Shown here: piece by piece, positions 1 to 50,130 of the stretch
Layout of the letters: every line of letters begins with the position of its first letter
Numbering within the stretch: the stretch's first letter is position 1
Assembly: GCF_009914755.1 (NCBI RefSeq)
Contig: NC_060938.1
Length of the DNA: 64,000 nucleotides
From: the human T2T-CHM13v2.0 reference genome, Homo sapiens
Direction: 5' to 3' (one strand)
Translations under genes and position numbers: made by a program
Notes under the pieces: model-generated
The model's database searches: none
Told to the model about the DNA's origin: nothing
The model's input: the letters and a program-made list of their open reading frames with translations, nothing else

Positions 1-3000
1 ATAGAATGGAGTGGAGTGGAATGGATTGGAGTGTTGTGGATTGGAGAGAAGTGGAATGGCATGGAGTGGAATGGAATGGCATGGAGTGGAGTAGAGAGGA
101 GTGGAGAGGACTAAAGTGGAGTGGAATGGAATGGAGTGGAATGAAGTGGAATGTAGTGCAGTGCAGTGGAGAGTAGTGGAATGGACAGGAATGGAATCTT
201 ATGTAATGGAATGTAGTGGAGTGGAGTGGAATGTAGTGGAGTGGAGTGCGGTGGAACAGAATGGTACGGAATAGAGTGCAACGGAATGGAACAGAACGGG
301 TGCTGAGATTGTGCCACTGCGCTACAGCCTGTGTGACGGAGGGAGATCCTGTCGAATAAAAGGAGTGGAATGGGATGGAGTGGAGTGCAGTGGAGTGGTA
401 TGGAGTGGAGTGGAGTGGAATGGAATAGAATGGAATGAAATGCGTGCTGAGATTGTGCCACTGCACAACACCCTGTTTGACAGAAGGAGACCCTGTCGAA
501 AGAAAGGAGTGGAATGGGTTGGAGTGCAGTGTAGTGTAGTGGAGTGTAGTGGAATGGAGTGGAGTGGAGTGGAATGGAGTGGAGTGGAGTGGAATGGAGT
601 GGAATTCAGTGGAGTGGATTGTAATGGAGTGGAGTGGAGTGGAATCGAGTGGAGAAGAGTCGAATGGAATGGAGTGCAGTGAAATGGAAAGAACGGGACT
701 GTAGTGGAATGGAGTGGAGTGGAGTTGAATGGAATGGAATGGACTGGAGTGGAATGGAATGGAATGGTGCGTAATGGAATGGACTGGAATGCAGTTGAAT
801 GGAATGGAGTGGAGTGGAACAAAATGGAATGGAAGGAACCAGAATGAAACGGAACAAAATGTGTGCTGAGATTGTGTCACTGTGCTACAGCCTGTGTGAC
901 AGAGGGAGGTCCTGTCGAAAGAAAGGAGTGAAATGGAATGGAATGGGGTGGAGTGGAGTGGAGTGGAGCAGAACGGAGTGGAGTGTAGTGGAGTGGAATG
1001 CAGTGGAGTGGAGTGGAATGGAGTGGAGAGGAGTGGATGGAGTGGAGTGGAGTGGAATGGAGTGGAATCGATTGGAATGGACTTGAGTGGAATGGAATGG
1101 ACTGGAGTGGAATGGAATGGAATGGAGTGGAATGGAATGGAGTGAAGTGGAGTGGAATGGATTGCAGTGGAGTGGAGTGGAGAGGAATTGTGTGTAATGG
1201 AACAGGGTGGAGTGGAATGGAATGGAATGGAGTGGAGTGGAATTTACTGGAGTAGAGTGGTATGGACTAGAGTGGAATGGAATGGAATGGAGTGGAACGG
1301 AATGGAATGAGTGGAGTGGAGTGGAATGTCGTGGAGTGGAGTAGAATGGAGTGGAGTGGAATGGAATGCAACGGAATGAAGTTGAGTGGAATGGAATGGA
1401 GTGGTGTGGAGTAGACTTGAGTGAAACGGAAAGGAATGGAGTAGAATGCAATGGAATGGAAAGGAATAGGTGTTGAGATTGTGCCATTGCTGTACAGCCT
1501 GTGTGACAGAGGGAGAACCTGTCGAGCGAAAGGAGTGGAATGGGATGGAGTGGAGTGAAGTGGAGTGTAATGGAGTGGAATGGAGAGGAACAGAGTGGTG
1601 TGGAGGGGAATGAAGTGGAGTGGAGTGGAATGGAGTGCAGTGGAGTGGGGTGGAGTGGAATTGAGTAGAAAGGAATGGAGTGGAGTGTGGTGGAATGGAG
1701 TGGAGTGGAGTTTAATGAAATGGATTGGAATGGAATGGAATGGAATGGAGTGGAGTGGAGTGGAGTGGAATGGATTGGAGTAGAGTGGAGTGGAGAGCAG
1801 TGGAATGGAGTGGAATGGAATGGAATGGAATGGAATGTAGTGGAATGGAATGGAATGGAATGGAATGTAGTGGAATGGAATGGAATGGAATGGAATGTAG
1901 TGGAATGGAATGGAATGGAATGGAATGGAATGTAGTGCAATGGAATGGAAAGGAATGGAATACAATGGAGTGGAGTGGAATGGAATGGTGTGGAGTGGAG
2001 CAGAAAGGAATGGAGTGGAACGGAATGAAGTGGAGTGGAGTTGAGTCGAATGGAGTGAAATGGAATGAACTGGAATGAAATGGAGAGGAGTGGAATGGAA
2101 TGGATAGGCGCGGATTGGAGTAGAGTAGAATAGAATGGGATGGAATGAAATGGAGTGGAGGGGAGTGGAATTTAGTGGAGTGGAGTGGAATTGAGTGGAG
2201 GGTAGTGGAGAGCAGTGGAATGGAATGGAATGGAATGGAATAGAATAGAATAAGTGCAGAGTTTGAGCCACTGCACTGCATCCTGTGTGACAGAGGGAGA
2301 TTCTGGCGAAAGAAAGAATTGGAATGGGAAGGAGTGTTGTGGATTGGAGTTCAGTGGAATGGAGTGGAATGGAGTGGAGTGGAGTGGAGTGGAGTGGAAT
2401 GGAGTGGAATGGAGTGGAATGGAATGGAATGGAATGGAGTGGAGTGGAATGAAACAGAATATAGTGGAATGGAGTGGAGTGGAATGTACTGGAGTGGAGT
2501 GGAATTGACTTGAGTGGAAATGATTGGAATGGAGTGGTGTGGAATGGATTGGAGTGTGGTGGAATAGAGTGGAGCGTAGTGGAGTGTAGTGGAGTTGAAT
2601 GGAATGGAACGGAGTGGCGTGGAATTGAATGGAATGGAATGGAGTGGAATTTACTGGAACGGTGTGGAATGGGCTGGATTTGAATGGAACGGAACGGATT
2701 TTAAAGGAAAGGAATGGAGTGGAATGGAGTGTAGTGGAGTTGAGTGGAGTTGAATGGAGTGTAGTGGACTGGAGTGCAGTGGAGTCCAGTGTAATGGAAT
2801 GGAAATCTATGGACTGCAGTGGAATGAAATGCAGTGGTTTTGAGTGGAGTGGAGTGGAATAGAATGGAATGGAATGGAAAGGTGGAGTGGAGTGGAATTC
2901 AGTGGAGTGGATTGCAGTGGAATGGAACGGAATGGAATGCAATGTAGTGGAGTTGTTTAGAGTGGAGTGGATTGGAAAGGAATGGAAAGAAATGGAGTGG

Positions 3001-6000
3001 AATGGAGTGCAGTAGAGTTGAGAGGAGCGGAATGGATTGGAATGGAATCAGATGTAATGGAATGTGGTGGAGTTGAGTTGAGTGGAGTGGAACGGAATGG
3101 AAAGGAACAAAACATAATGGAACGGAACGGAATGTGTGCTGAGATTGTGCCACTGCGCTACAGCCTGTTTGACAGAGGGAGAGCCTGTTGAAAGAAAGGA
3201 GTGGAATGGGATTGGGTGGAGTGCGGTGGAGTGGAGTGGAGTGGAATGAAGTGGAGTGGAGTGGATTGGAGAGGAGTGGATGGAGTGGAGTGGAGTGGAA
3301 TGGAATGGGGATTAGAGGAAAGGAATGTAGTGTAGTGGAATGGAAAGGCCTGAAGTGGAATGGAATGGAATGGAGTGGAGTGGAATGGAGTGGAGTGGAG
3401 TGGAATTGAGTGGAATGCAATGCAGTGGAGTGGAAGGGAATTAAATGGAATGGGGTATAATTGACTGGAATGGAGTGGAATGGACTGGAGTGGAATGGAT
3501 TAGAAAGGAGTGGACTGGAATGCAATGGAGTGGAGTGGAGAGGTGTGGAGAGGAGTGGATTGGAGTGCAATGGAGGGCAATGGAGTGGAGTGTAGTCGAG
3601 TGGTGTGGAATGGAGTGTAGTAGAGTGGAATGGAATGGAGGGGAGTGGAATGGAATGGAGTGGGGTGGAGTGGAGTTGAGTGGAATGTAATATAATGGAA
3701 TGGAATAGAATAGAATGGAATGGAATGGGTGCTGCGATTGTGCCACTGCACTACAGTGTGACAGACGGAGATCCTGTCGAAAGAAAAGAGTGGAATGTGA
3801 TGGAGTGTAGCGGAGTGCAGTGAAGTGGAATGGAGTTGAGTGGAATGGATTGGAGTGGAGTGTAAAGGACTGGAGTGGAGTGGAATGGACTCGAGTGGAG
3901 TGGAGTGGACTGGAAAGAAATGGAATGGAATGAAATGGAATGGAATGCACTGGAATGGAATGGAATGGTGTGGAATGGAATGGGTGCTGAGATTGTGACA
4001 CTGCACTGCAGCCTGTGTGACAGAGGGAGACCCTGTCGAATGAAAAGAGTGGAATGCGATGTAGTGGACTGGAGTGGATTGGAGTGGAGTGGAGTAGAAT
4101 GGAGTGGAGTGGAGTGCACTGGAGTTGAGTGGAGTAGAGTGGACTGGAATGGAATGGAATGGAGTGGAGTGCAGTTGAATGAAGTGGTGTGGAAGAGAGT
4201 AGAGAGAAATATAATGGAATGGAATGGAACTGAATGGAGAGGGGTGGAGTGGAGTGCAGTGCAATGTAATGTAATGGAATGGAATGGAATGGAAAGGAGT
4301 GGAGTGGAGTGCAATGGAATGGAGTGCAATGGATGAAGTGGAGTGGAGTGCAGTGGAGTGGAATGGAGTGGAATGAACTGGAATGGAATGGAGTGGAGTG
4401 GAATGGAATGGAGAGGTGTGAAGTGGAGTAGAGTGGAATGAAATGGAATGTAATAAAGTAGATTGGTGTGGAGTGGAATTGAGTGGAGTGCAGTGAAATG
4501 GAATGCAACGGAATGGAATGGAGTGGAGTTGAGTGGGGTGGAGTGGAAAGGAATGGAGTGGAATGGAGTGGAATGAAGTGCAGTGAAGTGGAGTGGAGCC
4601 AAATGGAGTGGAATGGAATCGGATGTAATGGAATATAGTGGAGGGGAGTGCAGTGGAGTGGAAAGGAATGGAACGGAACAGAATGGAATGGAACGGAATG
4701 AAATGTGTGCTGTAATCACGCCACTAAGCTACTGCCTGTGTGATAGAGGGAGATCCTGTCGAGAGAAAGGAGTATAATGGGATTGAGTGGAGTGGAGTGG
4801 AGTGGAATGGAGTGGAGAGGAGTGGAGTGATGTGGAATGGTGGGGAGTGGAGTTTAATGGATTAGAGTTGAGGGGAATGCAATGGAATGGAGAGGAGTGG
4901 AATGGGATGGAGTGGAGTGGAATGGACTGGAGCGGGGTGAAATGGACTGGAGTGGAATTGAATGGAATGGAGTGGAGTGGAATGGAAAGGAATGGAGTAG
5001 AATGGAGTGGAGTGGAGTGGAGTGCAATGGAGTGTGGTGGAATGCAATGGAGTATAGCGGAATAGAATGGAGTGGAGTGGAATTTACTGGAATGGAGTGG
5101 AATGGACTGGAGTCAACTGGAATGGAGTTGAGTGGAGTGGAATGGAGTTGAGTGGAGTGGAATGGAATGGAGTGGAGTGGAGTGGAAAGGAATGGAGTGC
5201 AGTGGAGTGGAGTGGAGTGAAATGGAGTGGAGTGGAGTGCAATGGAGTGTGGTGGAATGCAATGGAGTGGAGTGGAATAGAATGGAGTGGAGTGGAATTC
5301 ACTGGAATGGAGTGGAATGGACTGGAGTCGACTAGAATGGAGTTGAGTGGAATGGAATGGAGTTGAGTGGAGTGGAATGGAATGGAGTGGAGTGGAGTGG
5401 AGTGGAATGGAATAGAGTGGAGTGGAGTGGAGTGAAATGGAGTTGAATGGAATGGAATGGAATGAAATGGATACTTAGACTGTGCCACTGTGCTACAGCC
5501 TATGTGACAGTAGGGGAACCTGTCAAAAGAAAGGAGTGGAATGGGAAGGAGTGTAGTGGAGTGTTGTGGAGTGGAGTGGAGTGGAATTGGAGATTAATGT
5601 AACGGAGTGGAGTGGAATGGAATGGAATGGAGTGGAGTGGAATGGATTGGAGTGGAGTGGGGTGGAGAGCAGTGCAATGGAGTGGAGTGGAATGGAATGG
5701 AATGGAATGTAGTGGACTGGAATGGAATGGAGTTGCGTGGAGTGGAGTTCAGTGGAATTGAATGGAATGGAATGGAACTGAGTGGAATGGAATGGAATGG
5801 AATTGGTGCTGAGATTGTGCCACTGCTCTACAGCCTGTGTGATAGAGGGAGATCCTGTCGAAAGAAATAATTCTAATGGGAAGAAGTGGAGTGGATTGGA
5901 GTTGAGTGGAATGGAATGGAATTGACTGAAGTGAAATGGAATGGTATGAATGGTAAAGGAATAGAATGGAGTGGAGTGTGGTGGAATGGAATGGAGTGTA

Positions 6001-9000
6001 GTGAAGTGCAGTGCAGTTGAGTGGAATGGAATGGAGTGGAGTGAAATGGAGTGGAAAGGAGTTGAGTGCAATTTACTTGAAAGGAGTGGAATGGAATGGA
6101 GTGGAATGGAAACACAAGGAGTTGAATGGAGTGTAGTGTAGTGGAGTGGAGTGGAGTGGAATGGAATAGAGTGGAGTGGAGTGGAGTGAAATGGAGTGGA
6201 ATGGAATGGAATGGAATGAAATGGATACTTAGATTGTGCCACTGCACTACAGCCTGTGTGACAGAGGGAGATCCTGTCAAAAGAAAGAATTGTAATAGGA
6301 AGGAGTGGAGTGGATTGGAGTTGAGTGAAATGGAGTGGAATGGAACGGAGTGGAGTGGAGTGGAGTTGAATGGAATGGGGTGGAGTGGAATGGAGTTGAG
6401 TGGAATGGAGTGGAATGGAATCTGATGGAATGGAATGGAATAGAATGGAATGGATTATGGTGGAGTGGAGTGGATTGGAGTGGACTAGAATGGATTGGAG
6501 TGCAATGAAATGGGATGGAATGGAATGCCATCGAGTGCAGTGGAGTGGAGTGGACTGGAGTGGCGGAGAGTGGAACGGAGACGAGTGGAATAGAATGGAG
6601 TGGAATAGAATGGAATGGAATGCAATGGAATGGAATGCAAAGGAATGGAATGCAATGGAATAGAATGGAATGGAATGGTGAAATGAAATGTGAGCCGAAT
6701 TTGTGCCACAGCACGCCAGCCTGGGTGACAGAGTGAGATGCTGTCGAAAGAAAGAAATGGAATGGAATGGAGTGGAGTGGAGCGGTGTGGAGTGGAGTGG
6801 TGTGGAGTGGAATGGAATGGGATGGACTGTAATGGAATGGAGTGCAGTGGAGTGGAGTGGCAGAGAGTGGAATGGAGTCACGTGGAATGGAATGGAATGG
6901 AATGGAATGGAGTGGAATGGAGTGGAATAGAATGGAAAGGAGTGGAGTGGAGTGCAGTGGAGTGGAGTGGAGTAAAGTGCAGTGGAGTGGAGTGGAGTGG
7001 AATGGAATGGAATGGATTAGTGAAATGAAATGTAAGCTGAGATTCTGCCACAGTACTCCAGAAAGGGCGACAGAGTGACATCCTGTCGAATGTAAGGAAA
7101 GTAATTGAGTGGATTGGAATGGAATGGAATGGAGTGTAGTGGAGTGGATAGGAGTGTAGTGGAGTGGAATGGAGTGGAGAGGAATGGAATGGAAGGGAGT
7201 GGAGAGGAGTGAACAGGAGTGTAGAGGAATGTAATGGGATGGAATCCAATGGAATGAAATGGAGGGGAGTGGAGTGGAGTGTTGGGGAGAGGAATGGAGT
7301 GGTATGGAATTGGATGGAATTGAATGTAGTGGAGTGGAGTGGCATGGAGAGGAGTGGAGTAGAGTGGAGTGGAATGGCACGAAATTGAATGGAGTGGAGC
7401 CGAGTGGAGTGGAGTGGAGTGCAGTGGAGTGGAATGGAATATAGTGGAATGGAAATGAATGGAATGGAAAGGAATGTAATGGAATAGAGATGAATGATGA
7501 AATGAAATATGAGCTAAGATTGTAACACTGCACTCCAGCCAGTGTGACAGAGTGAAATACTGTCGAAAGAAAGGAATGGAATGGACAGGTGAAGAATGGA
7601 ATGGAATGGAATGGAGTGGAGTGGAGTGCATTATATTGGATTGGAGTGGAATGGAAAGGGATGGAATGGGATGGAGTGGAGTGGAGTGGAGTTGAATGGA
7701 ACGGTGTTGTATGGAATGGAATGGAATGGAATTGAATGGAATGCAGTGGAGCAGAGTGGAGTGGAATTCGCAGGAGTGGAATGGAAAGGCATGGAATGGA
7801 ATTGAATGCGTTGCAATGGAATGGAATGCAATGGAATGCAATGGAATGGAATGGAATGCAATGGAATGGAATGGTGAAATGAAATGTGAGCTGAGATACT
7901 ACCACTGCACTCCAGCCTGGGTGACACAGTGAGATCCTCTCAAAAGAGAGGAGAGGAATGGAATGGAATGGAGTGAAATGTAATGGAATGGAATGGAATG
8001 AAATGGAATGGAATGGCATGGAATGGAATGGAGTGGAGTGGAGTGGAATGAAATAGAATGGAGTGGAATGGAATGGGATGGAGTGGAAAGAATGGAGTGG
8101 AGGTGAGTGGAGTGGACGGGAGTGGAGTGGAGAGAAATGGAGTGAAACGGAATGGGATGGAATGGAATGGAGTGGAGTGGATTGGAGTGAAGTGGAGTGG
8201 AGTGGAGCGGAGTTGATTGGAGTGGAGTGGAATGGAGTGGAATGCAATGGAATGGAATGGTATGGAATGGAACGGGGGAGGGGAGTGGAGTGGAGTGGAG
8301 TGGAGTGGAATTGAGTGTAGTGGCACGGAATGGAATGGAAAGGAAAGGAATACAATGGAATGGTGAAATGAAATGTGAGCTGAGATTGTGCCCCTGTATT
8401 CCAGCCTTTTTTGACACAGTGATATCCCGTCGAAAGGAGGGAATGGAATGGAATGCGGTGGAATGGAATGTGATGGAATTGAATGAAATGGAATGGAATG
8501 GGGTTTAATGGAATGGAATGGAATGGAATGGAATGGAATGGAATGGAATGGAATGGAGAAATTAAATGTGAGCTAAGATTGTGCCACAGCACTCCAGTCT
8601 GGGTGACAGAGTGAGATCCATTTCGAAATAATGGAATGGAATGGAATGGAGTAGAGTGGAATGACTGCAGTGGCGTGGAATGGAGTGGAGTGGCGTGGAG
8701 TGAAGTTGAGTGGAGTGGAGTGGAATGGAATTTAGGGGAATGGAATGGAATGGAATGGTGAAATGAAATGTGAGCTGGGATTTTGTAATTGCACTCCATT
8801 TTGGGTGACAGAGTGAGATCCTGTCGAAAGAAAATAATGGAATGAAATGGAGTGGAAAAGAATGGAATAGAATGGAGTGGAGTGGAGTGGAGTGGAGTGG
8901 AGTGGAGTGGAATGGAATTTAGGGGAATGGAATGGAATGGAAGGGTAGGGAAGGGAATGGAATGGAAGGGAAGGGAATGGGGAAATGAAATGTGAGCTGA

Positions 9001-18000: not shown

Positions 18001-21000
18001 AGTGGAATGGAAGGGAATGGAATGCAATGTAATGGTGAAATGAAATGTGAGATGAGATTGTGCAATTGTATTCCAGCCTTTTTTGACACAGTGAGATCCC
18101 ATCAAAAGAAAGGGATGGCATAAAGTGGAGTAGAATAGAATGGAGTGGAATGGATTGGAGTGGGCTGGATTGGAGTGGAGTGCAGTGCAGTCGAGTGGAA
18201 AGGAGTGGAATGGAATGGGATGCAATGGAATGACATGGAGTGGAGTGGAGTGAAGTGAATTGGAGTGGAGTAGAGAGGAATGGAGTGGAATTAAATGGGA
18301 TGGAAAGGAATGGCATGGAGTTGAGTGGAATGGAGTGTAGTGGATTGGAGTGTAGTGGAGTGGATTGGAGTGTAGTAGAGTGGAATGGAATGGAATGGAA
18401 TGGAATGGAATGGAATGGAATGCAATGGAATGGAATGGAATGGTAAAATGAAATGTGAGCTGAGTTTGTGCCACTTAACGCCAGCTTGGGTGACAGAGAC
18501 AGATCCTGTCAAAAGAAAGGAATGGAATGGGGTGGAGTGTAGTGTAGTGGTTTGGAGTTCAATGGAGTGCAATGGAATGGGATGGAATGGAATGGAATGG
18601 AGTGCGGTGGAGTGGAGTGGAGTGGAGTGGAGTGGAGTGGAGTGGAGTGGAGTGGAGTGGCATGGAGTGGAATGGAATGCGATGGAATGGAATAAAGTAG
18701 AGTGGAGTTGAATGGAGTGGACTGGAGTGGAATGTAGTGGAATGGAATGGAATGAAGTGGAGTGGAGTGCAGTGGAGAGGGGTGAAGTGGAATGGAGTGG
18801 AATGGAATGGAATGGAATGGAATGGAATGGAATGGAATGGAATGGAATAGTGAAATGAAATGTGACCTGAAATTCTGCCACTGCACTCCAGACTGTGTGA
18901 CAGAGTGAGATCCTGTCGAATGTAAGGAATGGAATGGAATAGAGTGGAATGGAAAGGAAAGGAATGGAATGGAATGGAATGGAATGGAGTGGAGAGGAGC
19001 AGAGCGGAATGGAGTGGAGTGGAATTGAACGGAATTGGAAGGAATCGAATGGAACGAAGTGGAACGGAGTGGAATGTAGAGAAGGGACGAGGAGTGGAAA
19101 GGAATGGTATTGGATGAAATGGAATGGAGTGGAGTGCATTGGGGTGAAGAAGAGTGGAATGGAATGGAATGGAATGGAATGGAGTGGAATGGAATGGAGT
19201 GGAGTGGAGTAGAGTGGATTGGGGTGGAGTGTAATGGAATAGAATGGAATGGAAAGGAAAGGAGTGGAATAGAATGGAATGATGAAATGAAATATGAGCT
19301 GAGATTGTGGCACTGCACTCCAGCCTGGGAGAAACAGTGAGATCCGGTCAAAGGAAAGGAATGGAATGGAAAGGAGTGGAATGGAACGGAATGGAATGGA
19401 ATGGAACGGAACGGAACGGAACGGAACGGAACGGAATGGAATGGAGTGGAGTGGAGTGGAGTGCAGTAGAGTGGAGTGCAGTATAGTGAAATTGAATGGG
19501 ATGGAATGGAATGGAATGGAGCAGAGTAGTGTGGAGAGGAGTGGAATGGAATTGAAAGGAATGGAATTGAAAGGAATGGAATGGAGTGCAGTGGAGTGAA
19601 GTGGACTGGAGTGTGTAGGAGTGGAATGGAATGGGATGGAATGGAACTTAAAGAAACATAATGCAATTGAATGCAATGGAATGGAATGCAATGGAAAGGA
19701 ATGTGAAATGAAATGCTAGCGGATATAGTGCCACTGCACCCCAGGCTGGGTGACAGAATGAGACCTTGTCGAAAGAAAGGAATGGAATTGAATGGAGTTG
19801 AATGGAATGGAATGGAGTGGAGTGGAGTGGAGCTGAGTGGAGTGGACTGGATTTGACTGGAGTTGAGTGGAGTGCAGTGGAATGGAATGGGGTGGAGTGG
19901 AATGTAAAGGAGGGGTGAGGAGTGGTGTGGAGTGGAGTGAAGTGGAATCGAGTGGAATTCAATGGGATGGAATGGAGTGGAGTGGAGTGGAATAGATTGC
20001 AATGGAATGGAATGGAATGGAAGGGAATGTAATTGAGTGCAGAGGAGTTCATTGGAGTGGAATGGAATGCAGTGGAATGGGAAGGGATGTAATGTAATGG
20101 AATGGAATGGAATGGAGTGGAATGGAATGGAATGGAATCATGAAATGAAATGATAGCTGAGATTATGGCGCTTAACTCCATCCTGGGTGATGGAGTGAGA
20201 TCATGTCGACAGAAAGGAATAGAACGGATTGGAGTGGAATGGAATGGAGTAGAATGCAGTGGAGTGGAGTGGAGTGGAATGGACTGGAATGGAATGGATT
20301 AGAATGCAGTGGAGTGGAGTAGAGTGGAATGGACTGGAATGGAATGAGATGGGAAGGAGTGGAATGGGGTGGAGCAGAGTGGAGTGAAGTGGAATGCAAT
20401 GGAGTGGAATGGGGTGGAGCAGAGTGGAGTGAAGTGGAATGCAATGGAGTGGAATGGAAAGGGATGGAATGGAATAGAGTGGAGAGGAGTGGAGTAGAGT
20501 GCAATGGAATGGAATGGAGTGGAGTGGAGTGGGGTGGAATGGAGAGGAGTGGACTGGAATGGAATGGAATGGAATGGAGTGGAATAGAGTGGAATAGAAT
20601 GGTGAAATGAAATCTGAGCTGAGATTATGCCTCTGCACTCCATCCTGGGTGACAGAGTGAGATCCTGTCGAAAGAAAGCAATGGAATGGATTGGAGTGGA
20701 ATGCAATGGAATGGAATGGAATGGAAAGGAATGGAATGGAATGGAAAGGAGGGAATGGAATAGAATGGAGTGGGGTGGAGTGGAATGGAGTTGAATGGAA
20801 TGGGATGTAATGAAATGGAGTGTAATGGACTGGACTGGAGTGGAATGGAGTTGAGTAGAGTGGAAGGGACTGGAATGGAATGGGATGGAATGGAATGGAA
20901 TGGAGTGGAGTGGAGTGGGGTGGAAAGGAATGGGATGGAGTTGAGTGGAGTGGAGTGAAATGGAGTAGAATGGAAAGGAATGGAGTGGAGTGGAGTTGAA

Positions 21001-24000
21001 TGGAATGGAATGGAATGAAATTGAATGCAATAATGAAATGAAACGTGAGGTGTTATTGTGCTACCGCACTCCAGCCTTGGTGACAGAGTGAGATCTTCTT
21101 GAAAGAAAGGAATTGAATGGAATGGAGTGGAATGGAATGGAATGGAATGCAGTGGATGGAGTGGAGTGGAATAGAGTGGAACGGAATGTGATGGAGTGGA
21201 ATGGAATGGAGTGGAGTGGAGTGGAATTGAGTGGAATGGAAAGGGATGGAATGGAATGGAATGGGGAGGAGTGGAGTGGAAGGGAGTTGAGTGGAGTGGG
21301 GAGGAATGGAATGGAATGGAATGGAGTGGAGTAGAGTGGCGTGGAGTGGAGTGGAGTAGAGTGGAGTATAGTGGAGTGGAGTGGAGTATAGTGGAGTGGA
21401 ATGGAGTATAGTGGAATGGAGTGGAATGGAATGGAATGGAATTAAGTGGAGTGGAGTGCAGTGGAATGGAATGGAATGGAATGGAATGGAATGGAAAGGA
21501 ATTGAAAGGAATGGAATGCAGTGGAGTGGAGTGGAGTTCACAGAAGTGGAATAGAATTGAATGGAATGCAATGGAATGGAATGCAATGCAATGGAAAGGA
21601 ATGGAATGCAATGGAATGAAATGGAATGGAATGCAATGGAATGCAAAGGAATGGATGGTGAAATTTAATGTGAGCTGAGATAGTGCCACTGCATTCCAGC
21701 CAGGGTGACACAGTGAGAGTCTGTCGACAGAAAGGAATGGAATGGAAAGCAGTGAAACGAATGGAATGGAATAGAATGGAGTGGAGGGGAGGGGAGTGGA
21801 GTGGAGTGGACTGGAGTGAAATGGAGTCGAATGGAATGGGATGGAGTGAAATGGAATGGAGTGGAGTGGACTAGAGTGAAATAGAGTGGAAAGGAATTGG
21901 ATGGAATGGAATGCAATGGAATAGTGAAAAGAAATTTGAGCTGAGATTGTGCCACTGCACTCCAGCCTTTGTGAAAGAGTGAGATCCTGTGGAAAGAAAG
22001 GAATGTGATGGAATGGAGTGGAATTGTATGGAATGGAATGGAGTGAAGTGGAGTGGAGTGGAGTCGAGTGCAATGGAGTGGAATGGAATGGGATGGAAAG
22101 GAATGGCATGGAGTGGAGTAGAGAGGAGTGGATTGAAGTGGAGTAGATTAGCATGGAGTGGAATGGAATGGGATGGAATTGAATGCCATGGAATGAGGTG
22201 GAGTGGAGTGGACTGGATGGAGTGGACTGGATTGGAGTGGAGTAGAGTGTAATGGAGTGGAGTGGAATGGAATGGAATGGAATGGAATGCAGTGGAAAGC
22301 AATGGAATGGAATGCTATGGAATAGATTGGAATGGAGTGGTGAAATGAAATGTGAGCTGAATTTGTGCCAATGCCCGCCAGTCTGGTTGACAGGGTTACA
22401 TGCTGTCAAAAGAAAGGAATGGAATGGAATGAATTGGAGTGGAGCTGAGTGGAGTGGAGTGGTGTGGAGTGGAATGGAGTGGAATGGAATGGGATGGAGT
22501 GGAATGGAATGGAGTGTATTAAGTGGAGTGGCATGGAGTGAAATGCAGTGGAATGGAATGCGATGGAATGGGATGGAATGGAATGGAGTGGAGTGGAGTG
22601 GAATAGAGTGGAATAGAGTGGAATGGAGTGGAATGTAATGGAATGGAATGGAGTGGATTGGAGTGCAGTGAAGTGGAGTGGAATGGAATGGAATGGAATA
22701 GTGAAATGAAATGTAAGGTGGGATTCTGCCACTGCACTCCAGACTGGGTGACAGAGTGACATCCTGTCGAATGTGAGGAATGGAGCGGAATGGAGTGGAA
22801 TGGAATGTAGTGGAGTGGAGTGGAATGGAATGGAGTGGAAAGGAATGGAACGGAATGGAGTGGAGCGGAGTGGAGAGGAGTGGAGTCGAATGGAATGGAA
22901 TGGGATGGAATCGAATGGAATGAAGTGGAGGGGAGTGGAGTGGAGTGTTGTGGAGAGGAGTGGAGTGGTATGGAATTGGATGGAACTGAATGGAGTTCAG
23001 TGGAGTTGGGTGGAGAGGAATGGAGTACACTGGAGTGGAATTGAATGGAATGGAATGGAGTGGAGTTGAGTGAAGTGGAGTGGAGTGGAGTGGAATGCAA
23101 TGTAGTGGAATGGAATTGAATGGAATGGAAAAGAATGGAATGGAATAGAATGGAATGATGAAATGAAATATGAGCTGAGATTGTGCCACTGCACTCCAGC
23201 AGGGTGACAGAGTGAAATCCTGTTGAAAGAAAGGAATGGAATGGAAAGGACTGGAATGCAATGGAATGGAATAGAGTGGAGTGGAGTATACTGGAAGGGA
23301 GTGGAATGGAATGGGATGGAATGGAATGGAGAGGAATACACTGGAGTGTAGTGGAGTGGAATGGAATGGAATGGAATGGAATGGAATGCAGTGGAGTTTA
23401 GTTCACAAGAGCGGAATGGAATGGGATGGAATGGAATGGAATGCAATGGAATGGAATGCAATGGAATGGAATAAAATGGAATGCAATGGAAGGGAATTGT
23501 GAAATTAAATGTTAGCTGAGATAGTGCCACTGCACTCCAGCCTGTGTGACAGAGTGAGATCCTGTCGAAAGAAATTAATGGAATGTAAAGGTGTGAAGTA
23601 TGATGGAATGGAAGGAAACGGAATGGAGTGGAGTGTAGTGTAGTGGAATGGAGCGTAATGGAGTGGAATGGAATGGGATGGAGTGGAATGGAATGGAGTG
23701 GAATGGAGTGGATTGAATTGGAGTAGAGTGGAGTTGACTGGATTGAAGTGGAATGGAGTGGAGTGGAATGGAATGGAATGGAATGGAATGGAATGGAGGG
23801 GAGTGGAGGGAGGTGGAGGGGAATGGAGTGGAGTGGAATGGAATGGTAAAATAAAATGTGAGCTGAGATTGTGCCACTGTGTTCCAGCCTTTTTTGACAT
23901 AGTGAGATCCCATCAAAAGAAAGGACTGGAATGGAATGGGGTGGAATGGAATGGAGTAGAATGGAACGGAGTGGAGTGGGTTGGAGTGGAGTGCATTGGA

Positions 24001-27000
24001 GTGGAGTGGAGTCAAGTGAAATGGAGTGAAATGGAATGGAAGGGAATGGAATGGCATATAGTGGAGTGGGGTGGAGTGAATTTGAGTAGAGTAGGGTGGA
24101 ATGGAGTGGAATGGAGTGGAATGGAATGGGATGGAAGGGAATGGCATGGAGTGGAGTGGAATGGAGTGGATTAGAGTGGAGTAGAGTGGAATGGAAAGGA
24201 ACGGAATTAAATGGAATGGAATGGAATGGTATGGAATGGAATGGAATGCAATGGAATTGAATGGAATGCAATGGAATGGAATGGAATGGAATGGAATGGA
24301 ATGGTGAAATGAAATGTGAGCTCAGTTTGTGCCACTGCACGCCAGCCTGGGTGACAGAATGAGATCCTGTCGAAAGAAACGAATGGAATGGAATGGAGTG
24401 GAGTGTAGAGGTGTGGAGTGATGTGGAGTGGAATGGAGTGGAATGGAATGGGATGGATTTGAATGGAAGGAGTGTAGTGGAGTGGATTGGAGTGGAGTGG
24501 AGTGGAATGGAATGGAATGGAGTGGAATGGAATGGAATTGAATGGAATGGAATGGAATGGAATGTTGTGGAGTGTATTGGAATGGAGTGAAATAGAGTGT
24601 AATGTAATGTAGTGGAATGGAGTGGAGTGGAGTGCAGTGGAGAAGGGTGTAGGGGAATGGAATGGAATAGTGAAATGAAATGTGAGCTGAGATACTCCCA
24701 CTGCACTCCAGACTGTGTGACAGAATGAGATCCTGTCGAATGGAATTGAATAGAGTGGAATGAAATGGAGTGCAGTGGAGTGGAGCAGAGTGGAGTGGAG
24801 TGGAGTGGAATGGAATGGAATGGGATGGAATCAAATGGTATGAAGTGGAGGGGAATGGAGTTGAGTGGAGGGACGAGGAGTGGAATGGAATGGAATTGGA
24901 TGGAATGGGATGGAGTGGAGTGGAGTGGGGTGGAGAGTAGTGGAGTAGAGTGGAATGGAATGGAGTGGAGTGGAGTAGAGTGGATTGGAGTGTAATGGAA
25001 TAGAATGGAATGGATAGGAATGGAATGGTATAGAATGGAATGATGAAATGAAATATGAGCTGAGATTGTGCCACTGCACTCCAGCCTGGGTGACAGAGTG
25101 AGATCCTGTCAAAGGAAAGGAATGGAATGGAAAGGAGTGGAATGGAATGGAATGGAATGGAATGGATTGATTGGAGTGCAGTGGAGTAGAGGTGAGTGGA
25201 GTTCACAGTAGTGCAATGGAATGGAATGGAGTGGAGTCGAGTGCAGTGGAGTGGGTTGGAATGGAATGGAGTGGAATGGAATGGGATGGAATGGAATGGA
25301 GTGGAGTGGAGTGGAGTTCACAGGAGTGCAATGAAATGGGATGGAATGGAATTGAATGGAATGGAATGGAATACAATGGAGTGGAATGCAATGGAATGCA
25401 ATCGAATGGAATTGTGAAATTAAATGTGAGCTGAGATAGTGCCACTGCACTCCAGCCTGTGTGACAGAGTGAGATCCTGTTGAAAGAAATTAGTGGAATG
25501 TAAGAGAATAAATTATACTGGAATGGAATGGATTGGAGTGGAGTGGAGAGGAATGGAGCTTAATGGAGTGGAAGGGAATGGGAAGGAGTGGAATGGAATG
25601 GAGTGGAGTGGAGTGGAGTGGAGAGAAATGAGGTAAAATGCAATGGGATGGACTGGAATGGAGTGGAGTGGAGTGGAGTGAATTGGAATGGAGTGGATTT
25701 GACTGGATTGCAGTGGAATGAAGTGGAGTGGAATGGAATGGAATGGAATGGAATGGAATGGAGGGGAGTGGAGTGGAGTTGAGGGGAATGGAGTGGAGTG
25801 GAATGGAGTGGAATGGAATGGAATGGAATGGTGAAATAAAATGTGAGCTGAGATTGTGCCACTGTGTTCCAGCCTTTTTTTGACACAGTGAGAGCCCGTC
25901 AAAGGAAAGGAATGGAATGGAATATGGTGGAATGGAATGGAGTGGAGTGGATTGGAGTGGAGTGGAGTGGAGTCAAGTGGAACAGAGTGGAATGGAATAG
26001 GATGGAATCGAATGGCATGTAGTGGAGTGGGATGGAGTGAATTTCAGTGGATTAGGGTGGAATGGAGTGGAATGGAATGGGATGGAAGGGAATGGCATGG
26101 AGTGTAGTGGAGTGGACTGGAGTGGGTTAGAATGGAATTGAATGGAATGGTATGGAATGGAATGGAATGGAATGGAATGGAATGGAATGGAATGGAATGG
26201 TGAAATTGAATGTGAGCTGAGATAGTGCCACTCCACTCCAGCCTGGGTGACAGATTGAGATCCTGTCAAAAGAAAGGAATGGAATTGAATGGAGGGGAAT
26301 GGAATGGGATGGAGTGGGGTGGAGTGGAGTGGAGTGGAGGGGACTGGATTTGAGTGGAGTCTAGTGGAACAGAGTGGAATGGAATGGGGTGGAGTGGAAC
26401 GGAATGGAATGGAGAGGAGTGGTGTGGAGTGGAGTGGATTGGAATTCAATGGGATGGAATGGTATGGAGTGGAGTGGAATGGAGTGGAGTGGAATGGAAT
26501 GGAATGGAATGGAATTGGAATGGAATGGAATGGAATGGAATGGAGAGGAGAGGAATGGAGTGGAATGTAGTGTAATTGGAAAGGATGGAATGGAATGGAA
26601 TGCCATGGAATAGAATTAGGAATAGAATGGAATGATGTGGAATGGAATGGAGTAGAATTCAGTGGAGTGGAGTGGAGTGGAGTGGAATGTAATGTAATGG
26701 AATGGGATGGGATGGAGTGGAATGGAATGGAGTGGAGTGGAGTGGAGTGGAGTGGAATGGAGTGGAATGCAATGGGATGTGATGGAATGGAGTGGAGTGG
26801 AGTTGAGTGGATTGAAATAGAATGGAATGGAGTGGAGAGGAGTGTAGTGGAATGGAATGGAATGGAATGGAATAGAAGGGAATAGAATGGTGAAATGAAA
26901 TGTGAGCTGAGATTGTGCCACTGCACTCCATCCTGGGTGACAAGTGAGATTCTATCGAAAGAAAGGAATGGAACGGATTAGAGTGGAATGGAATGGAGTG

Positions 27001-27420
27001 GGGTAGAGTGGAGTGGAGTGTAGTGGAGTAGAGTGGAATAAAGAGGAATGGAATGGGATGTAATGGAAAGGAATGCAGTGGAGTGGAGTAAAGTGGAGTG
27101 GAGCGGAGTGGAGTGGTGTGGAGTGGAGTGGAGTGGAGTGGAGTGGAGTGGAGTGGAATGGAATGGAATGGAATGGAATGGAATGGAATGGCACGGTGAA
27201 ATGAAATGTGGGCTGAGATTGTGCCACTTCACTACAGCCTGGGTGACGGAGTGAGTTCCTGAAGAAATAAAATAATGTAATAGAATGGATTGGAATGAAA
27301 TGGAATGGAGTGTAGTGGACTGGAGTAGAGTGGAATGGAGTGGAGTAGAGTGGAAGGGAATGGAATGAAATGAGATGGAATGGAATGGAATGGAATAGAA
27401 TGGAGTGGAGTGGAGTGCAA
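1..27420. repeat. Satellite III (HSat3)-like diverged (GGAAT/GGAGT)n pentamer array, continuing off the left edge of the window
   Basis: Continuous 5-bp periodicity of GGAAT, GGAGT and variants (GCAAT, GCAGT, GTAGT, AGAAT, GAAAT, GGAAC). G-rich strand is on + throughout. Ends at ...TGGAGTGGAGTGCAA (27420). Confidence 0.95.
301..27270 (+). repeat. About 67 interspersed Alu-3'-end-derived cassettes (~60-75 bp) within the satellite
   Basis: Consensus (GTGAAATGAAAT)GTGAGCTGAGATTGTGCCACTGCACTCCAGCCTGGGTGACAGAGTGAGATCCTGTCGAAAGAAAGG matches the Alu right-arm end GTGAGCCGAGATCGCGCCACTGCACTCCAGCCTGGGCGACAGAGCGAGAC(C/T)C(T/C)GTCTCAAA. Examples at ~301, 445, 863, 1470, 6690, 7888, 12432, 14757, 25057, 26903, 27208. 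Confidence 0.92.
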
Positions 27421-27759
27421 AAATCCTCAATAAAATACTAGCAAGCCGAATTCAGCAGCAAATCAAAAAGCTTATCCACCATGATCAAATGGGTTTCATC
27501 CCTGGGATGCAAGGCTGGTACAACATACGCAAATCAGTAAACGTAATCCATCATATAAACAGAACCAACGTCAAAAACCACGATTATCTCAATAGATGCA
27601 GAAAAGCCCTTTGACAAAATTCAACAACCTTCATGCTAAAAACTCTCAATAAATTAGATATTGATGGGACGTATCTCAAAATATTAAGAGCTATTTATGA
27701 CAAACCCGCAGCCAATATCATACTGAATGGGCAAAACCTGAAAGCATTCCCTTTGAAAA
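27416..27759 (+). mobile_element. L1PA ORF2 internal fragment (RT region), lacking both 5' and 3' ends
   Basis: Translates as [34 protein letters not shown]... and [37 protein letters not shown]. Aligns to 47922-48268 of the full-length L1 in this window. Frameshifted. Confidence 0.95.
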
Positions 27760-28015
27760 TCTCAGTTACCTTTCTTTTGGATATGTGTGTGAGGAAAGAG
27801 TACCTACAAACTACCCTTTTAGTTAAATGCCATATACAATAAATATTAATACCTACAGTCCTCATGTTGTACATTAGAGCCCTCAATTTGTTAATTCTAC
27901 ATATCTGCAACTTTGCATCCTTCGAATTCTCTCTCTCCATTTTCTCTTCTCACCCCCAGCCCCTGGTAACCACTGTTTTATACTCTATCTCTGCATATTT
28001 ACCTTTTTGCTGTTT
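27760..28015 (-). mobile_element. Old L1MA-type 3' UTR fragment
   Basis: Motifs 'gtcctcatgttgtacattag', 'ctgcaactttg', 'cccccagcccctggtaaccactgttttatactct' are typical of antisense L1MA 3' ends. Confidence 0.6.
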
Positions 28016-44217: not shown

Positions 44218-45231
44218 GAGGATGGAGGCAACATGGCCGAATAGGAACAGCTCCAGTCTACAGCTGCCAGCGTGAGTGATGCAGAAGACAGGTGATATCT
44301 GCATTTCCAACTGAGGTACCAGGTTCATCTCACTGGGGAGTGCTGGACAGTGGGTGCAGCGCACCATGCATGAGCCAAAGCAGGGAAAGGCATCACCTCA
44401 CCTGGGAAGCAGAATGGGTCAGAGAATTCCCTTTCCTAGTCAAAGAAAGGGGTGACAGATGGCACCTGGAAAATCAGGTCACTCCCACCCTAATACTGCG
44501 CTTTTCCAACAGGCTTATCAAATGGCACACCAGGAGATTGTATCCAGCACCTGGCTTGGAGGATCCTACACCCACGGAGCCTCACTGTTTGCTAGCACAG
44601 CAGTCTGAGATCAAACTGCAAGGTTACAGTGGGGCTGGGGGAGGGGCTCCCGCCATTGCTCAGGCTTGAGTAAGTAAACAAAGCAGCCAGGAAGTTCGAA
44701 CTGGGTGGAGCCTAACACAGCTCAAGGAGGCCAGCCTGCCTCTGTAGGCTCCACCTCTGGGGGCAGGACACAGACAAACAAAAGACAGCAATACCCTCTG
44801 CAGACTTAAATATCCCTGTCTGACAGCTTTGAAGAGAGTAGTGGTTCTCCCAGCATGCAGCTTGAGATCTGAGAATGGGCAGACAGCCTCCTCATGTGGG
44901 TTCCTGACCCCTGAGTAGCCTAACTGGGAGGCACCCCCCAGTAGAGGCAGACTGACATCTCACATGGCCGGGTACCCCTCTGAGTCAAAACTTCCAGAGG
45001 AACGATCAGGCAGCAGCATTTGCAGTTCACCAATATCCACTGTTCTGCAGCCACCGCTGCTGATACCCAGGCAAATAGTGTCTGGAGTAGACCTCCAGTA
45101 AACTCCAACAGACCTGCAGCTGAGGGCCCTGACTGTTAGAAGGAAAACTAACAAACAGAAAGGACATCCACACCAAAACCCCATCTGTATGTCACCATCA
45201 TCAAGGACCAAAGGAAGATAAAACCACAAAG
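44218..45231 (+). promoter_or_regulatory. L1 5' UTR: internal sense promoter and antisense promoter region, CpG-decayed, retaining the 129-bp segment (~44975-45103)
   Basis: UTR is ~1014 bp. YY1-type motif AACATGGCCG near the 5' end. Extra segment between GGCCGGGTA and CCAACAGACCTGCAGC that L1HS lacks. Promoter function is inferred from family knowledge. Confidence 0.7.
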
Positions 45232-46245: not shown

Positions 46246-46308
46246 AGACCATCAAGGCTAGGAAGAAACTGCATCAACTAACGAGGAAAATAACCAGCTA
46301 ACATCATA

Positions 46309-50130
<3,822 letters not shown>

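What the first reader, a model, noticed from the sequence alone, without database searches (positions are those of the whole stretch)
301..27270. Composite satellite whose unit is 'Alu 3' end + its tail turned into (GGAAT)n'
Seen: about 67 co-oriented copies of the last ~55-60 nt of an Alu. Where the poly(A) should start, each reads GTC-GAAA-GAAA-GGAAT-GGAAT, a gradient from A-rich tail into the pentamer array. All Alu CpG positions are TpG in the cassette consensus (GAGCTGAGATTGTGCC, GGGTGACAGAGTGAG). The end GAGA(C/T)CCTGTC resembles AluJ (GAGACCCTGTCTC) rather than AluS/Y (GAGACTCCGTCTC). Established: Alu tails seed microsatellites, including disease pentanucleotide repeats such as those at the RFC1 and ATXN10 loci. 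Inference: one old, already CpG-decayed AluJ-like element grew a GGAAT tail, and the [Alu end + tail] block was then tandemly amplified. This would be a fossil record of how this SatIII-type array was born, rather than many independent Alu insertions. I cannot tell from here whether this subfamily is already catalogued.
Basis: partly seen in the sequence, partly recalled or inferred. Interest (0 to 1): 0.8.

Follow-up and report, generated by a model that had tools for sequence, protein, structure and literature searches.

The report
Alu-tail fragment inside HSat3 satellite
This stretch of human chromosome 14's short arm is an ordinary, already described kind of satellite III DNA whose repeat unit carries the last 56 bases of one ancient Alu element, copied many times from a single ancestor.

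Summary
A profile search finds exactly 67 cassettes, all on the + strand, between window 300 and 27271. Each holds the last ~56 nt of an Alu plus a GAAAGAAAG tail remnant, set in GGAAT/GGAGT pentamers.

The Alu breakpoint is uniform (Alu profile position ~229) here and in 10 sampled arrays on chr1, 7, 10, 16, 17, 20, 22 and Y. So there was one truncated Alu that was then amplified, not many insertions.

This window is not the birthplace:
- The array runs ~113 kb on chr14, with a 77-kb cassette-free middle.
- Its end junction recurs in at least 25 other places at 81-99% identity.
- Cassettes occur on at least 15 chromosomes.

Alu fragments in HSat3 repeat units are already in print.

The "tail turned into GGAAT" origin is not shown. 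No founder with upstream Alu sequence exists in CHM13. The same genome holds precedents for both routes:
- Alu tails that became (GGAAT)n inside their target-site duplications (chr1, chr2).
- A young Alu inserted into HSat3 with a duplicated target site (chr21).

The AluJ assignment cannot be settled from 56 nt.

The parts
1..27418 (+). Window part of a ~113-kb HSat3 array (chr14:1,339,983-1,453,418), GGAAT/GGAGT pentamers on the + strand
   Evidence: TRF gives period 5 over 550-27191, 5,238 copies, 67% matches. GC skew is 0.68-0.87 up to 27 kb and then collapses. The array ends at ~27418 against L1-like sequence.
300..27271 (+). 67 cassettes, each the Alu 3' end (56 nt, Alu profile positions ~229-284) plus a GAAAGAAAG tail remnant; median spacing 393 bp (144-882)
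   Evidence: nhmmer hits, full-length Alu profile (63 of the 67 detected, hmm_from median 229), unit lengths.
300..6286 (+). Domain of 12 derived 'type A' cassettes (GGTGCTGAG...CGCTACAGCCTGTGTGACAGAGGGAG) in GGAGT-rich spacers. Four more lie at 9243, 9880, 13739 and 14193
   Evidence: Alignment and clusters. Type A scores lower against Alus than type B, so it is the more derived form.
6690..27271 (+). Domain of mostly 'type B' cassettes (TGAAATGAAATG-GTGAGCTGAGATTGTGCCACTGCACTCCAGCCTGGGTGACAGAGTGAGATCCTGTC-GAAAGAAAGGAATGG), arranged in nested higher-order blocks
   Evidence: Cluster string HIJKLMNK at 6690-8992 recurs at 11169-13471. HIJ triplets recur at 15763, 18455, 22352 and 24316. Nearest-neighbour offsets are ~4.5, ~5.8, ~6.5 and ~1.9 kb at 85-97% identity.
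6329..7886 (+). One arm of the youngest internal multi-unit duplication (partner 10823-12364, offset 4494, 89.4% identity over 1,576 columns)
   Evidence: It is the only self-alignment of at least 250 bp at 84% identity or more with 28-nt words.
10823..12364 (+). Second arm of that duplication
27209..27271 (+). Last, degenerate cassette of the array (tail reads GAAGAAATAAAATAATG)
27419..27760 (+). Non-satellite flank that looks like L1 ORF2 sequence (my reading of the letters, no tool name). The junction with the array is itself duplicated genome-wide
   Evidence: Sequence. Window 26901-27900 matches end to end at 25 other places at 81-99% identity, and positions ~516-859 alone match dispersed repeats at 92-94%.

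Best explanation
The region is a composite, A-type human satellite III (HSat3) nested tandem repeat on the distal short arm of chromosome 14.

Unit structure. The basic unit has a median length of ~390 bp. It consists of the last 56 nt of one Alu right monomer, a 9-nt decayed tail remnant (GAAAGAAAG), a run of GGAAT/GGAGT pentamers, and a conserved A-rich end (GGTGAAATGAAATG) that abuts the next cassette.

History.
- Shown: every cassette, here and on the other chromosomes sampled, descends from one Alu truncated at the same position. That Alu had already lost its CpGs.
- Inferred: the block was amplified together with its pentamers by unequal exchange. The units diverged to ~22% pairwise. Multi-unit blocks of ~2-6.5 kb were then re-duplicated.
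- Shown by paralog identities: the whole array with its flank was copied as a segmental duplication among the five acrocentric short arms and to pericentromeres of chr1, 3, 4, 9 and Y.

Function. It has no demonstrated function. The cassette lacks the left-monomer Pol III promoter, so it cannot act as an Alu (inference from established Alu biology).

Origin. How Alu and pentamers first came to lie together is open. I put capture of an Alu that had retrotransposed into an existing pentamer array at about 0.5. I put growth of the pentamers out of the Alu's own tail at about 0.3.
For: Copy number and orientation: 67 of 67 cassettes lie on the + strand.

Uniform breakpoint: a full-length Alu profile (289 positions) gave 176 hits. 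These were 63 in the window array, 23 in the 100 kb upstream, and 90 in ten 4-kb samples from chr1, 7, 10, 16, 17, 20 (two), 22 and Y (two). The median start is 229 in 11 of the 12 sets and 231 on chr7. The minimum is 220. One hit starts at 247 and is the edge copy. Ends lie at ~284. Each locus uses one strand.

Conserved flanks: GAAAT GAAAT lies upstream in 43-44 of 66 units. GGAAT GGAAT GGAAT GGAGT lies downstream. These flank motifs are cassette-linked. In the 77-kb cassette-free middle of the same array, GAAAGAAAGGA occurs 0 times and GTGAAATGAAATG once.

Genome-wide spread: the same 5' junction AATGTGAGC with the 3' junction gives 243 matches against 0 for the control. A 60-nt core with up to 3 mismatches gives 231 against 0.

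Nested structure. Divergence is 12.7% from consensus and 21.8% pairwise over the 56 Alu columns.

Paralogs: 25 other end-to-end copies of the array/L1 junction at 81-99% identity.

Tail remnant is typical of Alus: 17 euchromatic Alus end in TGTC-GAAAG/AAAAG-type tails.

Literature (passages only):
Against: Subfamily membership is not pinned down. None of the 14 top subfamily-specific 24-mers of Altemose 2014 Table 1 occurs exactly in the window, and the wider 24-mer test could not be run.

Only 40 kb outside chr14 was sampled with the profile. The genome pattern counts are exact-end matches that catch only 6 of the 67 window cassettes, so rare longer copies could be missed.

Rhie et al. derive the fragments from AluY of PAR1. 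That fits poorly with a founder that had lost all its CpGs before amplification.

The 12.7% divergence from consensus, added to the time needed to lose all CpGs, exceeds what a standard neutral clock allows for an Alu. So rates in this array are unusual or my ordering of events is incomplete (inference).

I could not read Bandyopadhyay 2001, Choo 1990/1992 or Jarmuz 2007. The statement that this exact unit is in print rests on how others cite them.
Confidence: 0.88

Rival explanations
1. Tail-born. An old Alu in ordinary DNA had its poly(A) tail mutate stepwise (AAAGA, AAGGA, ATGGA) into a (GGAAT)n microsatellite. This is the route known at SCA31. The [Alu end + tail] unit was then amplified and founded this cassette-bearing HSat3 lineage.
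For: Precedents in the same genome:
- chr1:110.09 Mb (L011): a full Alu whose tail is replaced by (GGAAT)n(GGGAAT)n(AGAAT)n, all enclosed by a 10-nt TSD ATCATCACTG.
- chr2:109.66 Mb (L019): an Alu followed by a pure (GGAAT)203 of 1,015 bp, enclosed by a TSD (9 exact; about 15 nt with one mismatch by my reading).
- chr18:5.73 Mb (L012): tail followed by (AATGG)5(AATAG)n, though no TSD was found there.

The SCA31 (TGGAA)n lies in the poly-A tail of an AluSx (PMC8773600, passages).

In the cassette, Alu homology ends exactly at the natural 3' end and is followed by a typical decayed tail. The unit's distal end is A-rich (GAAAT GAAAT), as at the distal ends of L011 and L012. The founder was old before amplification.
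Against: No copy with upstream Alu sequence exists next to the junction (0 matches; none of 17 lies in HSat3).

The same array holds 77 kb of cassette-free GGAAT/GGAGT satellite with no cassette scars.

A rough extrapolation gives ~2,700 cassettes (243 x 67/6), or about 1 Mb. HSat3 totals 47.6 Mb. Most HSat3 would therefore need another origin or loss of the cassette.

The 'gradient' is only two pentamers long. An equivalent one is produced by simple insertion in L013.

The left edge of the chr14 array is a cassette truncated against beta-satellite-like repeats, not a full Alu.
Confidence: 0.3
2. Capture. An Alu retrotransposed into a pre-existing (GGAAT)n array at an A-rich variant site and decayed there. 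An unequal exchange between Alu position ~229 and a downstream pentamer then created a unit holding only the Alu's 3' end, and that unit was amplified.
For: Direct precedent at chr21:5.97 Mb (L013). A young Alu with intact CpGs sits in HSat3. Its A-tail is on the GGAAT strand and it is flanked by a 12-nt TSD GAAAAGGAATGG. No cassettes lie in the 20 kb around it.

The orientation of all cassettes (A-tail strand = GGAAT strand in all 12 sets) is the one expected for L1-endonuclease nicking of the T-bearing complementary strand (inference).

Cassette-bearing loci share their GGAAT/GGAGT mix with neighbouring cassette-free HSat3.

Alu-bearing units are a small minority of HSat3.
Against: No 5' part of the Alu and no 5' TSD survive anywhere.

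If GAAAGGAATGG were the TSD, the tail remnant would be only ~4 nt.

An Alu old enough to lose all CpGs requires a pentamer array at least as old. I could not test that without other primates.
Confidence: 0.5
3. Independent Alu insertions into a satellite, each later truncated (the reading that the first reader's refutation test addresses).
For: Alus do insert into HSat3 (L013).
Against: All 176 profile hits start at about position 229 (min 220; one at 247, the edge copy), and each locus uses one strand. The flanks are conserved on both sides. All share CpG-to-TpG changes. No individual TSDs are seen.
Confidence: 0.01
4. Chance juxtaposition. A rearrangement, rather than retrotransposition or tail growth, joined an expanding pentamer array to an unrelated old Alu.
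For: Rearranged junctions are common here, for example the cassette truncated against beta-satellite-like repeats at chr14:1,339,983 and the array/L1 junction.
Against: The junction falls exactly at the Alu's natural 3' end plus a tail remnant of the kind seen in 17 ordinary Alus. That would be a coincidence for a random breakpoint.
Confidence: 0.1

Closest known systems
HSat3 subfamily A4 and its acrocentric clones (pR-1, pR-2, pR-4, pTRS-47, pE-2; Bandyopadhyay 2001, Choo 1990; classified in Altemose 2014 Table S1)
   Same: It is a pentamer (CATTC/GGAAT)n satellite rich in GGAGT on the short arms of all five acrocentrics. In Altemose's Dataset S2, 24-mers holding CCACTCCACTCC belong to 3A4 (18 of 24) or 3A5 (6 of 24), and such runs dominate this array. 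It lacks the B-type decamer. Altemose's preprint cites Bandyopadhyay 2001 for TE fragments inside HSat3 units.
   Different: Membership was not shown. The published top 3A4 24-mer is absent as an exact match (2 hits at one mismatch). I could not see the clone sequences or the CenSat label. No Alu-derived 24-mers appear in Dataset S2.
'HSat3-Alu fragments' of the T2T-Y paper (Rhie et al., preprint 10.1101/2022.12.01.518724)
   Same: Alu fragments are interspersed with HSat3 on Y and the acrocentrics. They cluster together without grouping by chromosome and are interpreted as seeding events. I find the same cassette at chrY:11.19 and 62.07 Mb.
   Different: They label the fragments AluY derived from PAR1. 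Here the founder had lost every CpG before amplification and its end reads CCTGTC, which does not look like a young AluY. From the passages I saw, they do not state a single breakpoint or a tail remnant.
HSat1B / DYZ2 (2.5-kb unit with one Alu per repeat; Frommer 1984)
   Same: It is a classical satellite whose repeating unit includes an Alu-derived subunit.
   Different: Its partner is an AT-rich sequence rather than pentamers. It has a larger Alu portion, a 2.5-kb homogeneous unit and over 98% identity between units. Here the pairwise divergence is ~22%.
SCA31 (TGGAA)n and other pentanucleotide expansions in Alu poly(A) tails
   Same: The motif is the same (TGGAA = GGAAT). It sits directly 3' of an Alu body, with A-rich variant pentamers alongside. 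Natural examples are at chr1, chr2 and chr18 of this genome.
   Different: Those tracts lie between a full Alu and its TSD and are single arrays of up to about 1 kb. Here only 56 nt of Alu remain, no TSD is present, and the [Alu end + pentamers] block is itself the repeat unit of a 100-kb satellite.

Membership tests
Human satellite III (HSat3) | Built from diverged (GGAAT)/(CATTC) pentamers | tested here: met
   TRF period 5, consensus TGGAA, 550-27191. GGAAT 54 and GGAGT 42 per kb.
Human satellite III (HSat3) | Pericentromeric or acrocentric short-arm location, shared among acrocentrics | tested here: met
   The window is chr14:1.426-1.490 Mb. Copies at 97-100% identity lie on chr13, 15, 21 and 22 short arms.
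HSat3 A-type versus B-type | B subfamilies carry the decamer CAACCCGAGT (motif recalled; its complement is in the HSat3B1 24-mer of Altemose 2014 Table 1) | tested here: not met
   0 hits at up to 1 mismatch in the window array and the 100 kb upstream. 1 hit in ten sampled loci. So it is A-type by exclusion.
HSat3A4 (Altemose 2014) | [quoted passage not shown] | tested here: inconclusive
   The top 24-mer of each of 14 subfamilies gives 0 exact hits. The fuller list in Dataset S2 could be searched only by term. The script test on the array was not run.
Alu (the cassette as an Alu fragment) | Sequence homology to the Alu right-monomer 3' end beyond chance | tested here: met
   Scores of 39-43 against a shuffle maximum of 17. 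The cassette profile finds the window's five true Alus at E 1e-10 to 1e-15. Alu profile positions 229-284.
Alu (as an independent retrotransposon insertion) | Full or 5'-truncated element with its own poly(A) and target-site duplication | tested here: not met
   The breakpoint is identical and both flanks are conserved across copies. There are no individual TSDs.
AluJ subfamily | Diagnostic bases of the J consensus (recalled: ...GAGACCCTGTCTC end; GTGATC rather than GAGATC) | tested here: inconclusive
   The cassette has GAGATCCTGTC (J-like end, one change) but GCTGAGATTG (S/Y-like). No Dfam or Repbase consensus was available in the tools.
Tail-born pentanucleotide repeat (SCA31 type) | The repeat tract lies between the Alu body and the 3' copy of its TSD | tested here: inconclusive
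   The cassette has lost its 5' end and any TSD. The feature is met for L011 and L019, and the opposite (TSD made of pentamers) holds for L013.
Satellites that include TE fragments in their repeating unit (Altemose 2021/2022 sense) | A TE fragment recurs at a fixed place in a tandem unit | tested here: met
   67 cassettes at a median spacing of 393 bp with a conserved unit layout.

The most novel reading that the evidence does not exclude
The whole cassette-bearing HSat3 lineage was seeded when the poly(A) tail of one old Alu mutated into a (GGAAT)n microsatellite and expanded. On a rough extrapolation this lineage comprises some 2,700 units on at least 15 chromosomes. That is the same mutational route that causes SCA31. 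Loci such as chr2:109.66 Mb, where an Alu tail has grown into a pure (GGAAT)203 inside its target-site duplication, would then be living examples of the first step from retrotransposon tail to classical satellite.
Probability: 0.3. Interest if true: 0.6.

Novelty: already known. Interest (0 to 1): 0.3.

Why it matters
As it stands, this is a well-formed example of something already in print: HSat3 arrays on the acrocentric arms and Y that carry Alu fragments in their units.

The cassette is still useful. It is a single-origin marker that distinguishes one HSat3 lineage among look-alike pentamer arrays. It could therefore serve to trace exchanges between acrocentric short arms and pericentromeres.

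If the tail-born origin were shown, it would link disease-type pentanucleotide expansion at Alu tails to the birth of a classical satellite. That would be a concrete answer, for one lineage, to where satellites come from. That part is not shown here.

Tried and rejected
- Rfam at gathering thresholds over the whole window gave 0 matches, so nothing points to 7SL/SRP rather than Alu.
- Self-BLAST for a clean higher-order repeat failed at low stringency. The pentamers give hundreds of ~80% alignments. Only cassette clustering and one 89% duplication were informative.
- Altemose 2014 Table 1 24-mers gave no exact hits.
- Dataset S2 holds no Alu-derived or junction 24-mers (0 occurrences for 10 terms). 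A control call (49) found the two whole Table 1 24-mers I gave it, so the search works.
- Three founder searches found no copy with upstream Alu sequence next to the pentamer junction.
- The left edge of the chr14 array was examined for a full Alu. It is a cassette cut at profile position ~20 (Alu position 247) against what I read as beta satellite.
- A 10-kb query for paralogs could not be scored. A 1-kb query worked.
- Papers not held: PMC1821104, PMC332295, PMC1682629. PMC1971745 held no relevant text.
- Dating by a neutral clock was considered and dropped. The time to lose all CpGs plus 12.7% later divergence exceeds the age of Alus, so the rate here is not the genome average.
- Independent insertions were rejected (see rivals).
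Full report
**1. What is there**

The first 27.4 kb of the window is pentamer satellite. TRF reports period 5 (TGGAA) from 550 to 27191. GC skew is +0.68 to +0.87 up to 27 kb and then collapses.

A 17-nt motif from the cassette, allowing 3 substitutions, hits 59 times on + and 0 on -. A profile built from those copies finds 72 hits in the whole window at E<=1e-3.
- 67 lie on the + strand between 300 and 27271.
- The other 5 lie in the non-satellite flank on both strands. They are ordinary dimeric Alus with A-rich linkers and poly(A) tails.

The 67 starts are: 300, 443, 861, 1470, 2254, 3134, 3728, 3983, 4705, 5473, 5806, 6227, 6690, 7032, 7510, 7886, 8375, 8568, 8770, 8992, 9243, 9880, 10515, 10757, 11169, 11505, 11981, 12432, 12891, 13067, 13269, 13471, 13739, 13900, 14193, 14384, 14755, 15108, 15363, 15763, 16149, 16597, 17321, 17665, 18047, 18455, 18862, 19295, 19718, 20155, 20615, 21045, 21670, 21937, 22352, 22714, 23171, 23512, 23858, 24316, 24682, 25056, 25426, 25843, 26212, 26902, 27209.

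**2. It is Alu, and one Alu**

The cassette consensus aligns to the last ~56 nt and the start of the tail of the window's five Alus. Local scores are 39-43 (type B) and 28-34 (type A). Shuffle means are ~10 and shuffle maxima 14-17.

I built a full-length Alu profile of 289 positions from 9 Alus of this genome. With it, 63 of the 67 window cassettes are detected. All begin at profile position 220-236 (median 229) and end near 284.

The same holds elsewhere:
- 23 hits in the 100 kb upstream on chr14.
- 90 hits in ten 4-kb samples from chr1:128.6, chr7:57.7, chr10:39.0, chr16:35.7, chr17:27.8, chr20:29.8 and 31.7, chr22:12.5, and chrY:11.2 and 62.1 Mb.
- The median start is 229 in every set except chr7 (231).
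- Each locus uses one strand.
- The only late start (247) is the copy cut at the array edge.

After orienting by the Alu strand, all loci are GGAAT-rich. So the Alu sense strand is always the GGAAT strand.

Both flanks are conserved. GGT GAAAT GAAAT G lies before the cassette (GAAAT in 43-44 of 66 units). GAAAGAAAG then GGAAT GGAAT GGAAT GGAGT lies after it.

Independent insertions are excluded.

**3. State of the founder**

I compared the cassette with a young Alu that still has its CpGs (L013). The four CpGs in this segment are all TpG in the cassette. A fifth site, CA in L013, is TG in the cassette.

All changes are C-to-T on the same strand. For five sites that is about 1 in 16 by chance (my arithmetic). 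It matches the C-poor + strand. I leave it as a minor unexplained point.

The subfamily is not decidable.
- The end GAGATCCTGTC is one change from the J-type end as I recall it.
- GCTGAGATTG matches the S/Y form rather than J.
- No Alu consensus library was available.
- Rhie et al. label such fragments AluY.

**4. Internal architecture**

Units have a median length of 393 bp and a range of 144-882 bp. Cassettes differ by 12.7% from their consensus and by 21.8% pairwise over the 56 Alu columns.

There are two forms.
- Type B is closer to Alu.
- Type A is derived. It comprises about 16 of 67: the first 12 cassettes plus 9243, 9880, 13739 and 14193, by my reading. It sits in GGAGT-rich spacers and scores lower against Alus.

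Clustering shows nested repeats.
- The run of eight cassettes at 6690-8992 recurs at 11169-13471. Offsets are ~4.5 kb and nearest-neighbour identities 91-97%.
- A three-cassette motif recurs at 15763, 18455, 22352 and 24316.
- Other nearest neighbours lie ~1.9, ~5.8 and ~6.5 kb apart.

The youngest block duplication is 6329-7886 versus 10823-12364 at 89.4% identity.

**5. Wider setting**

On chr14 the array runs from 1,339,983 to about 1,453,418.
- The left 7.3 kb has 22 cassettes.
- The next ~77 kb has none.
- The right ~29 kb has 2 + 67.

The cassette-free middle also lacks the cassette-linked flank motifs: GAAAGAAAGGA occurs 0 times and GTGAAATGAAATG once.

The left edge is a cassette truncated against a tandem repeat that I read as beta satellite. 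The right edge abuts L1-like sequence.

That right junction (window 26901-27900) is found end to end at 25 other places:
- 97-99% identity on chr22, 15, 13 and 21 distal short arms.
- 95-96% at chr3:95.54, chr13:10.63, chr4:49.53 and chr22:7.76 Mb.
- 81-89% at further short-arm sites, chr9:76.69, chr1:128.0 and chrY:11.5 Mb.
- Only 40 of 14,017 candidates were scored, so this is a floor.

A 121-nt piece is 100% identical on chr13, 15, 21, 22 and chr3.

Genome-wide counts:
- The cassette with its own 5' and 3' junctions occurs 243 times by an exact-end pattern, against 0 for the control.
- A 60-nt core with up to 3 mismatches occurs 231 times, against 0.
- Chromosomes hit are 1, 3, 4, 7, 9, 10, 13, 14, 15, 16, 17, 20, 21, 22 and Y.
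- That pattern catches only 6 of the 67 window copies. A rough extrapolation is therefore ~2,700 cassettes.

This window is thus one paralog of an old, widely copied duplicon, not a birthplace.

**6. Tail-born or captured?**

Searches for a founder were all negative.
- Alu-type sequence upstream of the breakpoint plus the cassette's 3' junction: 0 matches.
- The same with any short tail before GGAATGGAATGG: 0 matches.
- With up to 3 mismatches: 17 matches. All are ordinary euchromatic Alus whose tails read TGTC-GAAAG..., and none is followed by pentamers.

The 17 matches do show that TGTC-GAAAGAAAG is a normal decayed Alu end. So the A-rich piece is a genuine tail remnant.

A looser search (TTGCAGTGAG, 55-85 nt, GGAATGGAATGG) gave 11 matches at 8 loci against 0 for the control. 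These matches provide precedents for both routes.
- Tail-born:
  - chr1:110.09 Mb: tail replaced by (GGAAT)n(GGGAAT)n(AGAAT)n inside a 10-nt TSD.
  - chr2:109.66 Mb: pure (GGAAT)203 inside a TSD.
  - chr18:5.73 Mb: (AATGG)5(AATAG)n after the tail, with no TSD found.
- Capture:
  - chr21:5.97 Mb: a young Alu inside HSat3 with a 12-nt TSD GAAAAGGAATGG. Its junction (poly(A), GAAAAG, GAATGG...) looks like a gradient although it is a plain insertion.

I weigh capture somewhat higher (about 0.5 against 0.3) for three reasons:
- Cassette-bearing units are a small part of HSat3. HSat3 totals 47.6 Mb.
- They share the GGAAT/GGAGT mix of neighbouring cassette-free satellite.
- A satellite is a ready-made amplifier for a captured fragment.

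This weighting is inference.

**7. Comparison with what is known**

- Altemose et al. [quoted passage not shown] For HSat3 they cite Bandyopadhyay 2001.
- Altemose 2014 Table S1 (read whole) places Bandyopadhyay's all-acrocentric clones pR-1, pR-2 and pR-4, with pTRS-47 and pE-2, in HSat3A4.
- In Dataset S2, 24-mers with CCACTCCACTCC are 3A4 or 3A5. Such runs dominate this array.
- Rhie et al. (preprint, passages read) describe HSat3 intermingled with Alu fragments on Y and the acrocentrics, and speak of seeding events.
- SCA31's (TGGAA)n in an AluSx tail is in PMC8773600 (passages).
- I could not read Bandyopadhyay 2001, Choo 1990/1992 or Jarmuz 2007.
- Two searches found no paper that states the single breakpoint or a tail origin for HSat3. 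That is weak evidence of absence.

**8. Verdict**

The feature is real and its single-origin amplification is well supported. The kind is already known. The origin-from-tail reading is possible but unshown. The AluJ label is unsupported. Interest is modest.

Noticed in passing
L019 (G000 chr2:109,659,452-109,664,451), repeat at locus 375-1390: A euchromatic Alu whose tail runs into a perfectly pure (GGAAT)203 of 1,015 bp, enclosed by the Alu's target-site duplication. The motif is the same as the SCA31 expansion. I could not tell which gene, if any, it lies in, or whether it is polymorphic.
   Followed up: partly
L011 (G000 chr1:110,089,849-110,090,749, minus strand): A full Alu with no poly(A) left. 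The tail is replaced by ~270 nt of (GGAAT)n, (GGGAAT)n and (AGAAT)n between the Alu body and a 10-nt TSD ATCATCACTG. G-rich variants lie next to the Alu and A-rich ones are distal.
   Followed up: partly
L013 (G000 chr21:5,968,399-5,969,404, minus strand): A young Alu with nearly all CpGs intact, inserted into cassette-free HSat3 with a 12-nt TSD GAAAAGGAATGG. It shows that HSat3 can be a retrotransposition target at A-rich variant pentamers.
   Followed up: partly
L009 3500-4000 (chr14:1,339,500-1,340,000): The left boundary of the HSat3 array is a tandem repeat that I read as beta satellite. It joins a cassette cut at Alu profile position 247, at a CACCTG/CACTGC look-alike that may be a microhomology junction.
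   Followed up: no
chr14:1,347,300-1,424,500 (L001-L008): 77 kb of cassette-free GGAAT/GGAGT satellite lies between the two cassette-bearing domains. It has its own long periodicities: 20-mer offsets peak near 0.8, 5.25, 6.5-6.6 and 11.9 kb.
   Followed up: no
window 300-27271: All five Alu CpG sites of the cassette decayed to TpG on the same strand and none to CpA, while the window's ordinary Alus show both outcomes. With five sites this may be chance.
   Followed up: no
window 44231-50357: A ~6-kb stretch with strong positive AT skew (0.29-0.43) and no tandem repeats. It is masked in NCBI's file. I take it to be a long L1 on the + strand but did not check.
   Followed up: no
G000 chr3:95.39-95.54 Mb and chr4:49.53-49.64 Mb: Non-acrocentric pericentromeres carry copies of this same array. 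The tested pieces are 96-100% identical on chr3 and 95-98% on chr4, which implies fairly recent exchange with the acrocentric short arms.
   Followed up: no
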